A stretch of DNA of 64,000 nucleotides from a bacterium. Lineage in GTDB: Bacteria > Bacillota > DTU030 > JBMNJR01. The DNA lies in assembly GCA_050951765.1 (NCBI GenBank), contig JBMNJR010000008.1, positions 54,795 through 118,794 of the forward strand, read 5' to 3'. The notes beneath the pieces are model-generated. The model had not been told where the DNA came from. It saw only the letters and a list, made by a program, of their open reading frames with translations, and made no database searches. Shown in pieces: positions 54,014-54,712 of this stretch (its first letter is position 1; every line of letters starts with the position of its first letter). The position numbers and the translations under genes are program-made.

Positions 54014-54227
54014 AGAAAATAACCTCCTCCATATGTTATGATTGATTTTCCCCGCTGAAATTATGCATTGAATTGCTAAAAAAAGGAAACCCCTCGGGGC
54101 TTCCAATAAAACTATTTAATAGATGCCAGCTGCTCTGAAAATATACGCTAATACTCAGCTATGGTCAGCTTGTTGGTTAAGCTATTTCCCGCCGGACTCC
54201 ACCGCCGTGCCATCCTCTCCCTCTTTT

Positions 54228-54292
54228 CTAACTTCCAACTTCTAACCTCTAATCTCCAAGAGCAGTCGCCAGCTTTAGAAAATTGGCTAGCC
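54228..54292. repeat. Family R2 repeat copy
   Basis: CTAACTTCCAACTTCTAACCTC...AGCAGTCGCCAGCT...AAAATTGGCTAGCCC; reverse-complement of the 25100..25157 copy. Confidence 0.6.
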
Positions 54293-54602
54293 CATCCCAT
54301 TAGCGCACCACAAGGATAGGGTGCACCAAGGTCAGCACTTCTGGTGGAGCGTATTTGCGACGAGCAACTGTAGCAGTTGTCAGTAGTTGGAACTCAGTAG
54401 CTTGTTACTCGGTGCCGGAAATACCCCGAAAACAGCATTGAGGCACTAAGTAAAGAGAGCGCAGGCGAGTGAGGATAAAAGCGACACCATGTCTGAGGCC
54501 GCAAGGACGAATTGTGTCGCTGCCCGAACGAGCCGAGCTCGTTCAGGAGAACTGTCTCCTGCTATGGAGGAGTACTTCCGGCAGTAGAAGTGTAGAGACA
54601 TG

Positions 54603-54710
54603 GGCTCACGACCCCGCTCGCCAAGGAACAGGAGAAAGCGAAGCCAGAAGTGATAGACAGTTAATTTCCATTCCTCTGCTGGTGTCGGGAAGCGGCATGG
54701 GCGTCTACTT
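54603..54710. repeat. Family R1 repeat partial copy
   Basis: About 108 bp homologous to 14452..14547 and 35432..35532; on the minus strand begins 3 nt after the cobO stop. Confidence 0.7.
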
Positions 54711-54712
54711 GA

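What the first reader, a model, noticed from the sequence alone, without database searches (positions are those of the whole stretch)
54110..54712. About 600 bp ORF-poor, hairpin-rich region between cobO and lgt
Besides the R2 and R1 copies, the segment 54300..54600 contains several perfect stems (GCGACAC...GTGTCGC; GAACGAGC-CGA-GCTCGTTC; GGAGA-ACTG-TCTCC) and no convincing ORF on either strand. It could be a structured non-coding RNA, a long lgt 5' leader, or a pile-up of repeat remnants. I cannot match it to a known RNA family by eye.
Basis: seen in the sequence. Interest (0 to 1): 0.45.

Follow-up and report, generated by a model that had tools for sequence, protein, structure and literature searches.

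The report
Mosaic intergenic repeat pile-up after cobO
The 600-base gene-free, hairpin-rich stretch between cobO and lgt is not a known RNA gene or an lgt leader. It is a lineage-specific stack of modular, hairpin-forming repeat elements lodged between the cobO stop codon and its terminator, from a repeat family of uncultured Bacillota that I could not find described.

Summary
Window 54014-54712 has no credible ORF, and three perfect stems cluster at 54480-54561 (3 seen, 0.34 expected). Nearly all of the stretch is built from repeat modules:
- M1 (54134-54221)
- R2 with a heptamer run (54222-54292) and its inverted partner (54379-54397)
- R1 (54573-54710), which ends in a 48-nt END motif 3 nt from the cobO stop codon

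Only about 54296-54378 and 54398-54451 have no detected copy.

M1, R2 and R1 recur at four other intergenic sites in the window. M3's only detected copies are in another MAG. An END profile finds 34 copies in the window plus 11 metagenome loci. Within a locus they lie on one strand, often in arrays of about 300 nt. A few stems show compensatory changes.

Two relatives with about 70% CobO identity lack the region. One has a cupin gene there. A terminator separates the region from lgt. There is no Rfam, Pfam, tRNA, plasmid, viral or literature match.

Best reading: a composite of non-autonomous mosaic repeats, comparable to BIME, BOX or MITE elements, carried in the cobO 3' UTR. The mobilising enzyme is unknown. 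Interest is modest.

The parts
54078..54104 (-). Intrinsic-terminator-like hairpin (GGAAGCCCCGAGGGGTTTCC) plus T-run. It lies downstream of cobO and the repeat composite and upstream of lgt.
   Evidence: The only weak Rfam match here (ncr1241, E = 2) is to this hairpin plus U-run. A terminator-like hairpin sits in the same position upstream of lgt in relative L143 (similarity weak, 24 nt, E = 0.27).
54134..54221 (+). M1 module, the 5' module of a unit. It starts CTCTGAAAAT and ends CCATCCTCTCC.
   Evidence: Aligns with 35534-35600, with 7508-7601, and with the reverse complement of 25261-25337. The copy in A is the most diverged and carries an insertion of about 25 nt.
54222..54292 (+). R2 module. 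It contains the heptamer run TTCTAAC TTCCAAC TTCTAAC CTCTAAT, then GCAGTCGCCAGCT...GGCTAGCC.
   Evidence: 79% identical over 71 nt to 25163-25101 on the reverse strand.
54379..54397 (+). Inverted partial copy of the R2 heptamer run, giving an R2...R2' inverted pair as at 25133-25251.
   Evidence: Inverted repeat I1: 19 nt, 79% complementary to 54228-54246. The same inverted-pair layout is seen at 25133-25251.
54452..54545 (+). M3 module: a purine-rich lead (GAGCGCAGGCGAGTGAGG), hairpin 1 (54480-54521) and hairpin 2 (54526-54544).
   Evidence: Homologous to L124 8836-8738 (74%, E = 1.5e-7) and to L124 597-500. By my hand register (the MAFFT alignment puts a gap here), the hairpin 1 stem is replaced wholesale, GCGACAC/GTGTCGC versus GCGCGGGC/GCCCGCGC, with pairing kept. 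In L124, hairpin 2 keeps pairing through G.U pairs that exist only on this strand. Fold z = -3.6.
54544..54561 (+). Hairpin 3: CAGGAGA-ACTG-TCTCCTG.
   Evidence: It is in the sequence.
54573..54710 (+). R1 module, the 3' module of a unit. It includes the END motif.
   Evidence: 80% identical over 138 nt to 35402-35531. The part 54608-54709 is 90% identical to 14445-14546.
54663..54710 (+). END motif: TTTCCATTCCTC, then an extended hairpin (54677-54703, TGCTGGTGTCG-GGAAG-CGGCATGGGCG), then TCTACTT. It ends 3 nt before the cobO stop codon (54713-54715).
   Evidence: nhmmer profile hit, E = 1.5e-14. Alignment of 32 copies. Inner stem 96% paired. The extended stem needs three G.U pairs that exist only on this strand. 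END folds better on this strand in 30 of 32 copies.
14445..14547 (+). Family copy B: R1/END only, truncated at the 5' side. It ends 5 nt from the stop codon of gene 14553-18041 (-).
35283..35533 (+). Family copy C: a 251-nt unit closed by a perfect 22-bp terminal inverted repeat made of two inverted END-type ends.
   Evidence: Fold z = -7.5..
35534..35745 (+). Family copy F: an M1 module directly abutting copy C, followed by a possible very degenerate END next to the stop codon of gene 35741-36523 (-).
   Evidence: M1 homology. The degenerate END was identified by eye only and was not found by nhmmer.
7508..7707 (+). Family copy E: a short M1 plus degenerate END unit. The CTA of its END motif is the TAG stop codon of gene 7703-8992 (-).
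   Evidence: nhmmer E = 0.019.
25085..25337 (-). Family copy D, in reverse orientation: M1 followed by an inverted pair of R2 heptamer modules.

Best explanation
The region is a composite of non-autonomous, modular intergenic repeat elements. Their organisation is comparable to BIME, BOX or MITE elements.

**Architecture.** Units have a conserved 5' module (M1, starting YCTGAAAA or TTGAAAAA), variable hairpin-rich middle modules closed by long inverted repeats, and a conserved 3' module (R1). R1 ends in a nearly invariant END motif: TTTTCATYCYTCTGCTGGTG, a stem-loop, then CATGGGCGTCTACY.

**What happened here (inferred).** In this lineage one long unit, or several nested ones (M1-R2-...-M3-R1, about 577 nt, 54134-54710), sits between the cobO stop codon and the pre-existing terminator upstream of lgt. 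That slot holds a cupin gene in one syntenic relative and about 105 nt in another.

**Shown.** The modular repeat make-up, the multi-copy and array behaviour, the shared strand within each locus, the conserved pairing of hairpins, and the absence from two relatives.

**Inferred.**
- The elements spread, or once spread, by a trans-acting enzyme that recognises the END hairpin and its invariant flanks, probably on folded single-stranded DNA.
- At this locus the only consequence is a 0.6-kb structured 3' UTR on the cobO transcript. On the mRNA (-) strand the 603-nt region folds with z = -2.85. This may alter mRNA stability or read-through into lgt.
For: **1. Most of the region is made of repeat modules.**
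- R1 and END recur at 14445-14547 and 35402-35532.
- R2 recurs at 25163-25101, and M1 at 35534-35600, 7508-7601 and 25337-25261.
- M3 recurs twice in L124.
- An R2 inverted partner lies at 54379-54397.

**2. The family behaves like dispersed repeats.**
- 34 END copies are found in the window plus 11 metagenome loci from other Bacillota MAGs.
- All copies within a locus are on one strand.
- Arrays have a period of 285-327 nt.
- Copies are 80-95% identical to one another.
- There are truncated copies (B), degenerate copies (E, and F by eye, L127_6750) and nested or abutting copies (C next to F).
- END supplies the stop codon of gene 7703-8992.
- Short-read contigs break inside the region: L002 and L138-L141.

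**3. The region is lineage-specific.**
- It is identical or nearly so across the parts covered by the strain contigs.
- It is absent in two relatives: L133 has a 105-nt gap after cobO, and L143 has a cupin gene plus a terminator-like hairpin in the same position.
- END is absent from 60 kb of relatives' DNA.

**4. Hairpins are maintained.**
- The END inner stem is 96% paired while its loops vary.
- The closing stem of type-1 units has 5 pairs with compensatory change and none of those broken.
- The M3 stem is swapped wholesale with pairing kept (by hand register).

**5. It is not a gene of a known kind.** There is no Rfam hit, no Pfam hit, no tRNA or tmRNA, and no consistent promoter or terminator per unit in two related arrays.
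Against: - No mobilising gene was found: no Y1/HUH transposase in the 268 kb held (using query sequences recalled from memory, so a weak test). The IS21 element in the window has unrelated ends.
- No target-site duplication and no empty-versus-filled site pair was available, so mobility is inferred, not shown.
- Most units lack terminal inverted repeats of the classical MITE type.
- Copies differ by 5-20%, so there is no sign of a recent burst.
- Segments 54296-54378 and 54398-54451 have no detected copy elsewhere in the data held.
- The strong conservation of the unpaired END flanks, and the G.U pairs specific to one strand, would also fit an RNA function.
Confidence: 0.7

Rival explanations
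1. The units are genes for a family of small or medium structured RNAs on the window + strand, antisense to cobO and lgt. The END tail (a CU-rich UUCCUCU stretch plus a hairpin) would be the functional or protein-binding end. Region A would be one long member.
For: - The END extended hairpin forms only on the + strand, using three G.U pairs, and folds better there in 30 of 32 copies.
- G.U pairs in the L124 copies of M3 hairpin 2 are on the same strand.
- Compensatory changes occur in stems.
- The + strand of 54300-54700 is purine-rich, opposite to its surroundings.
- By my reading of the map, END is antisense to the flanking genes in 7 of 9 informative loci. Passive co-transcription would not predict that.
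Against: - There are no consistent promoter-like or terminator-like sites per unit, and the END hairpin has no U-tract.
- The whole region on the + strand folds no better than shuffles (z = -0.43). Type-1 units fold better on the opposite strand.
- Truncated and degenerate copies, and copies that donate a stop codon, are typical of selfish repeats.
- No Rfam family matches.
- The region is not conserved at this locus in relatives.
Confidence: 0.12
2. The units are cassettes of a site-specific recombination system that works like integron cassette arrays. The folded END region would be the recombination site: outer helix TTTTTTCA/TGAAAAAA, a 6-7 nt unpaired spacer, an inner imperfect helix and a variable loop.
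For: - Arrays are in one orientation with units of 285-327 nt whose bodies differ but whose junctions are the same.
- The junction motif is an imperfect palindrome of about 60 nt with a conserved structure and a variable loop.
Against: - The conserved AAC/GTT core triplets of attC sites are absent; the motif has TCA/TGA instead.
- The outer helix is only 71% paired and is missing in window copies A and B.
- No integrase or array-proximal recombinase was seen, though none was searched for systematically.
- Units contain no ORFs.
- From general knowledge, integrons are essentially unknown in Bacillota.
Confidence: 0.07
3. The region is a cis-regulatory leader or riboswitch of lgt, or a decayed remnant of the cupin gene found at this position in a relative.
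For: - It lies upstream of lgt on the map.
- A cupin gene occupies the cobO-lgt gap in the syntenic relative L143.
Against: - A terminator-like hairpin with a T-run separates the region from lgt.
- The relative's lgt has only about 158 nt upstream, carrying a terminator-like hairpin in the same position.
- tblastn of the cupin protein against the spacer finds nothing better than E = 0.09.
- No riboswitch hit is found here, whereas the TPP riboswitch elsewhere in the window is found easily.
Confidence: 0.03

Closest known systems
BIMEs (bacterial interspersed mosaic elements) built from REP sequences, mobilised by RAYT/TnpA-REP, in Proteobacteria
   Same: - Intergenic and mostly just downstream of stop codons.
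- Mosaic combinations of a few modules in direct and inverted orientation.
- GC-rich hairpins with conserved structure.
- A GTAG tetranucleotide is present on the reverse strand of END (GGTAGACGCCC...).
- Expected side-effect on mRNA 3' ends.
   Different: - The GTAG is 8 nt from the fully paired stem. The REP definition requires 0-2 nt (PMC6006769).
- Units are 100-580 nt, not 20-40 bp.
- The unpaired flanks of the hairpin are the most conserved part.
- The host is Bacillota.
- No RAYT gene was found.
BOX elements of Streptococcus pneumoniae (boxA-boxB(n)-boxC modular repeats). Comparison from general knowledge.
   Same: - Found in Firmicutes.
- Conserved 5' and 3' modules bracket a variable number of middle modules.
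- Strong predicted secondary structure.
- Intergenic.
- No coding capacity and no identified transposase.
   Different: - No sequence similarity is expected, and none was tested here.
- BOX elements do not form long one-orientation arrays of about 300-nt units sharing only an invariant 3' hairpin motif.
IS200/IS605-derived non-autonomous elements (PATEs), moved as single-stranded DNA by Y1 HUH transposases
   Same: - A subterminal hairpin lies a few nucleotides from the element end.
- Most units have no terminal inverted repeats and no visible target duplication.
- New units abut the end of resident units.
- All copies in a locus lie on one strand.
   Different: - The 5' end of the units carries no hairpin resembling the 3' END hairpin.
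- No Y1 transposase or TnpB gene was found.
- The better-folding strand of END is usually antisense to the flanking genes. That is the opposite of what I recall for IS608-type lagging-strand-template insertion, if genes follow replication.
Classical MITEs (for example Correia or RUP elements): TIR-bounded deletion derivatives of DDE insertion sequences
   Same: - Short, non-coding and multi-copy.
- Copy C (35283-35533) has perfect 22-bp terminal inverted repeats and folds into one long hairpin.
   Different: - Region A and most units have unlike 5' and 3' ends.
- No target-site duplication is seen.
- No parent IS with these ends is present in the data held.

Membership tests
Any Rfam 15 RNA family (riboswitches, large ornate RNAs such as OLE, ROOL, GOLLD and HEARO, ribozymes, sRNAs) | A covariance-model match at or near the family's gathering score | tested here: not met
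   In window 53000-56000 at E <= 10, the only match is a terminator-like hit (ncr1241, 21 bits against a gathering score of 60). The whole window at gathering thresholds gives only a TPP riboswitch and 2 tRNAs. Related loci give nothing relevant.
REP / BIME (RAYT-associated) | A GTAG or GTGG tetranucleotide 0-2 nt 5' of a fully paired basal stem of 7-20 nt (definition quoted in PMC6006769) | tested here: not met
   On the reverse strand, GTAG is followed by ACGCCCAT (8 nt) before the 7-bp perfect stem. The extension of the stem on that strand is broken by C.A and C.C mismatches.
REP / BIME (RAYT-associated) | High-copy intergenic palindromes arranged in mosaics, in both orientations | tested here: met
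   At least 5 composite sites in 64 kb. There are 34 END copies in about 160 kb of window plus related loci. Modules occur in direct and inverted order.
REP / BIME (RAYT-associated) | A RAYT (TnpA-REP) gene in the genome, flanked by the repeats | tested here: inconclusive
   tblastn with Y1 transposase and RAYT sequences recalled from memory finds nothing below E = 0.8 in the 268 kb held. The complete genome is not available.
MITE (derivative of a DDE insertion sequence) | Terminal inverted repeats at both ends | tested here: inconclusive
   Copy C has perfect 22-bp TIRs. Region A has only a degenerate 9-nt match, 54290-54298 with 54694-54702. Array units have unlike ends.
MITE (derivative of a DDE insertion sequence) | Target-site duplication, and a parent IS with the same ends | tested here: not met
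   Flanks of copies A, B, C and E show no direct repeat beyond a possible CTC. The TIR 15-mer with up to 3 mismatches finds no IS end in the window.
IS200/IS605-type non-autonomous element (PATE) | Similar subterminal hairpins at both ends on the same strand, with strand-biased insertion | tested here: inconclusive
   The 3' END hairpin is subterminal, and all copies in a locus share a strand. No matching hairpin was seen in the 5' module by inspection.
Integron attC cassette array | R''/R' boxes with conserved AAC...GTT core triplets flanking an imperfect palindrome | tested here: not met
   The outer boxes read TTTTTTCA...TGAAAAAA. They are 71% paired and absent from window copies A and B.
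lgt 5' leader / cis-regulatory RNA | Contiguous with the lgt transcript and conserved upstream of lgt in relatives | tested here: not met
   A terminator-like hairpin lies between the region and lgt. L143 has about 158 nt upstream of lgt with no similarity to 54134-54710, and L133 has no lgt there.

The most novel reading that the evidence does not exclude
The END motif is a 48-nt element whose unpaired flanks are almost invariant across three Bacillota MAG lineages, while the unit bodies differ. On this reading it is the recognition site of a dedicated, so far unidentified single-strand-specific enzyme (an HUH nuclease, a recombinase or an RNA-guided protein). That enzyme would build one-orientation arrays of about 300-nt structured cassettes in the 3' UTRs of genes. 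This would be a new type of prokaryotic mobile or cassette system rather than a variant of REP, MITE or IS200/IS605 elements.
Probability: 0.15. Interest if true: 0.6.

Novelty: new member of a known kind. Interest (0 to 1): 0.3.

Why it matters
For annotation, it settles that this 0.6-kb gap is neither a missed gene, a riboswitch nor a large ornate RNA. It is repeat DNA that was inserted into, or replaced, the cobO-lgt spacer, so it should be masked in ncRNA screens.

The family itself looks undescribed. It has modular units, one-orientation arrays of about 300 nt, and an END hairpin with invariant flanks shared by several uncultured Bacillota. That could lead to its mobilising enzyme. It could also help show how such elements reshape 3' UTRs and stop codons, since at least one gene in the window takes its stop codon from the repeat. 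It also explains why short-read assemblies of this organism break at this locus.

Tried and rejected
- **Rfam.** Searched at permissive E-values on the region and on a related array, and at gathering thresholds on the whole window and 11 loci. Nothing relevant.
- **Genome-collection scan.** A scan with the 17-mer AGTAGACGCCCATGCCG returned only chance hits. The ones inspected lie inside high-GC coding sequence (GMGVYY), and nhmmer shows all others match only about 20 nt around the 17-mer. The pattern was too short.
- **Viral contigs.** No END match.
- **Plasmid collection.** No match.
- **Literature.** The motif as a text string gave no paper. Papers on REP and RAYT do not cover Firmicutes families like this one.
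- **Cupin pseudogene idea.** Rejected.
- **Parent transposase.** tblastn with Y1 and RAYT sequences found nothing.
- **Wasted look-ups.** Two encoding-contig look-ups used ORF-derived proteins that were not on record, probably because of start-codon choice.
- **cUUCGg tetraloop.** I first read the END loop as this tetraloop. A recount shows a UUC triloop or varied 4-5-nt loops, so that argument for RNA was dropped.
- **Per-unit sigma-70 promoter.** The idea of TTGAAA-N17-19-TAxxxA at unit starts is not supported by the scans.
- **Covariation in the END hairpin.** Not above the shuffle controls, because the stem hardly varies.

Full report
**Setting**

The window matches a JGI metagenome contig of an uncultured Bacillota bacterium (L001) at 99.7-100% where the two align, though they are not collinear throughout. 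The finding lies between two genes on the - strand. cobO is 54713-55330 (Pfam CobA_CobO_BtuR). lgt is 53234-54013 (Pfam LGT). The gap is 700 nt.

**Observation**

- The gap holds only ORFs of 52 aa or less, plus a 149-aa GTG ORF that runs antisense into cobO. None has a Pfam match.
- Perfect stems of 7 bp or more in 54300-54600: 3 observed against 0.34 expected, with 3 of 500 dinucleotide shuffles reaching 3.
- Segment 54452-54562 folds with z = -3.6.
- The whole 603 nt is less remarkable: z = -0.43 on the + strand and -2.85 on the - strand.
- There is no tRNA or tmRNA.
- There is no Rfam match at E <= 10 apart from a terminator-like hit.

**Anatomy**

The region resolves almost entirely into repeat modules.

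1. **R1 (54573-54710).** It is 80% identical over 138 nt to 35402-35531. Its last 102 nt are 90% identical to 14445-14546. All copies are on the + strand.
2. **R2 (54222-54292).** It contains a heptamer run (TTCTAAC TTCCAAC TTCTAAC CTCTAAT) and matches 25163-25101 in reverse. An inverted partial copy sits at 54379-54397. This reproduces the inverted-pair layout seen at 25133-25251.
3. **M1 (54134-54221).** It aligns with 35534-35600, with 7508-7601, and with the reverse complement of 25261-25337.
4. **M3 (54452-54545).** Its only detected copies are two in a higher-GC Bacillota MAG contig, L124 8836-8738 (E = 1.5e-7) and 597-500. Each lies next to the same END motif.

About 135 nt (54296-54378 and 54398-54451) have no detected copy.

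Long-range complementary segments are nested: 54290-98 with 54694-702, 54336-44 with 54644-52, and 54413-27 with 54569-83. So the 3' two-thirds can close on itself. Copy C (35283-35533) does this with a perfect 22-bp terminal stem (z = -7.5).

**The family**

A metagenome scan with CCTCTGCTGGTG-N5-15-CATGGGCGTCTAC returned 11 loci from other MAGs.

- **Copy number and layout.** A profile of the motif finds 34 copies at E < 1e-4 in the window plus these loci. Within each locus all copies lie on one strand, often in arrays.
- **Array units.** The units measure 285-327 nt. They fall into at least two body types that share only the junction ...TTTTCATYCYTCTGCTGGTG-stem/loop-CATGGGCGTCTACC|TTGAAAAAAC....
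- **Divergence.** Loci match each other only through the repeats, at 80-94% identity.
- **Orientation.** By my reading of the map, END is antisense to the flanking genes in 7 of 9 informative loci. Its 3' end often lies within a few nucleotides of a convergent stop codon.
  - Copy A lies 3 nt from the cobO stop codon.
  - Copy B lies 5 nt from the stop codon of gene 14553-18041.
  - In copy E, the CTA of the motif is the TAG stop codon of gene 7703-8992.
  - L125 and L122 show gaps of 3-7 nt.
- **Other copy types.** There are truncated copies (B), degenerate copies (E, and F by eye, L127_6750) and abutting copies (C next to F).
- **Assembly breaks.** Short-read contigs of the same organism break inside the region (L002, L138-L141).

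**Structural constraint**

- The END inner stem is 96% paired while its loop varies. Covariation does not exceed the shuffle controls because the stem is nearly invariant.
- RNAalifold extends the stem (UGCU-G-GUG.../...CAU-G-GGCG) with three G.U pairs that exist only on the END + strand. END folds better on that strand in 30 of 32 copies.
- The closing stem of type-1 units has five pairs with compensatory change, none of them broken.
- By my hand register (the MAFFT alignment places a gap here), the stem of M3 hairpin 1 differs at 7 of 8 pairs between the window and L124, with pairing kept. Hairpin 2 in L124 uses G.U pairs on the same strand.
- Whole units do not favour one strand consistently. 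Type 1 folds better on the opposite strand and type 2 on the END strand.
- Neither the window region nor two related arrays show a consistent promoter or terminator pattern.

**Conservation at the locus**

- Strain-level contigs are identical or nearly so across the parts of the spacer they cover. L140 differs at 6 positions within M3.
- Two relatives with about 70% CobO identity do not carry the region.
  - In L133-L135, cobO is followed after 105 nt by the small gene and the ferredoxin gene, and there is no lgt.
  - In L143 and L144 the order is Amidase_6-cobO-cupin-lgt-small-ferredoxin.
- The cupin protein leaves no trace in the window spacer (best tblastn E = 0.09).
- The lgt start region aligns between L143 and the window. 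A terminator-like hairpin sits in the same position upstream of lgt in both, though that similarity is weak (24 nt, E = 0.27).
- END is absent from all the relatives' loci.
- So the composite lies between the cobO stop codon and a pre-existing terminator (54104-54085 plus a T-run). This excludes an lgt leader. It also makes the region part of the cobO 3' UTR, assuming transcription runs to that terminator. That step is an inference.

**Interpretation**

The best-supported explanation is a lineage-specific composite of non-autonomous mosaic repeats.

How the family moves is not shown. I found no transposase, although the test was weak: the query sequences were recalled from memory and only 268 kb was searched. 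I also found no target duplication and no empty site.

The invariant unpaired flanks of END, the variable loop and the shared strand within each locus argue for a trans-acting factor that reads a folded single strand. Whether that strand is DNA (as for IS200/IS605 or RAYT elements) or RNA cannot be decided with these tools.

**Comparison with known kinds**

- The family fails the REP definition. Its GTAG lies 8 nt from the stem, where 0-2 nt is required (PMC6006769).
- It lacks the AAC/GTT cores of attC sites.
- It lacks a second matching subterminal hairpin, as IS200/IS605 elements have.
- It has MITE-type TIRs only in copy C.
- Its modular 5' module, variable middle and 3' module layout most resembles BOX or BIME organisation.
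- No paper in the searchable library contains the motif. The REP surveys I read do not mention Firmicutes or Clostridia families.

**Verdict**

The finding is real. It is explained as repeat DNA rather than a new RNA gene, and interest is modest. The repeat family itself appears undescribed. It may merit a genome-wide census and a search for its enzyme.

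Noticed in passing
window 56701-59157, compared with L001 and L136: An IS21-type element (HTH, IstA 520 aa, IstB) lies between the rubredoxin cluster and the Amidase_6 gene. It is absent from strain contig L136. The window and JGI contig L001 differ structurally at its istB end: the window ORF 57077-57601 is 174 aa, against a 241-aa IstB in L001. L001 positions 7303-7730 and 8137-8629 have no counterpart in the window. The window/L001 match also stops at window 46185.
   Followed up: partly
window 38235-38344 (+): TPP riboswitch (78 bits) upstream of genes on the + strand. tRNAs lie at 327-410 and 45092-45163.
   Followed up: no
window 7700-7705, and L131 about 9660-9690: Repeat modules supply stop codons of host genes. 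The CTA of a degenerate END motif is the TAG stop codon of gene 7703-8992 (-). In L131 the module GGGGTCAGGCCATTAACTTATTAAC ends ORF 8676-9683 (a multicopper oxidase).
   Followed up: partly
L143 6709-7059 (the syntenic relative): A 116-aa cupin gene occupies the cobO-lgt gap in a relative with 70% CobO identity. Another relative (L133) has neither the cupin gene nor lgt at this position. Gene content in this slot therefore varies between lineages.
   Followed up: yes
window 54224-54251, 25133-25163 and 25226-25251: Runs of three to four heptamers (YTCYAAY, for example TTCTAAC) inside the R2 module, present as inverted pairs. They look like iterons or a protein-binding array. Their function is unknown.
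   Followed up: no
window 43406-43456, 44878-44982, 41302-41340, 41458-41534, 6500-6557, 6620-6658 and 4856-4891: Further intergenic palindromes of 36-112 nt that are unrelated in sequence to the END, M1 or R2 modules. They may be terminators or other hairpin repeats.
   Followed up: no
L128 9948-12204: A DEAD/DEAH helicase that is 778 aa in close relatives is split into 550-aa and 219-aa ORFs in this MAG contig, next to a repeat array. This is either a frameshift or an assembly error.
   Followed up: no
L140 1190-1247 (equivalent to window about 54480-54545): One Logan contig of the same species differs from the window at 6 positions inside module M3. The changes include one that turns the inner stem into a perfect CCCGC/GCGGG pair. 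This could be strain variation or an assembly cross-over into a paralogous M3 copy.
   Followed up: partly
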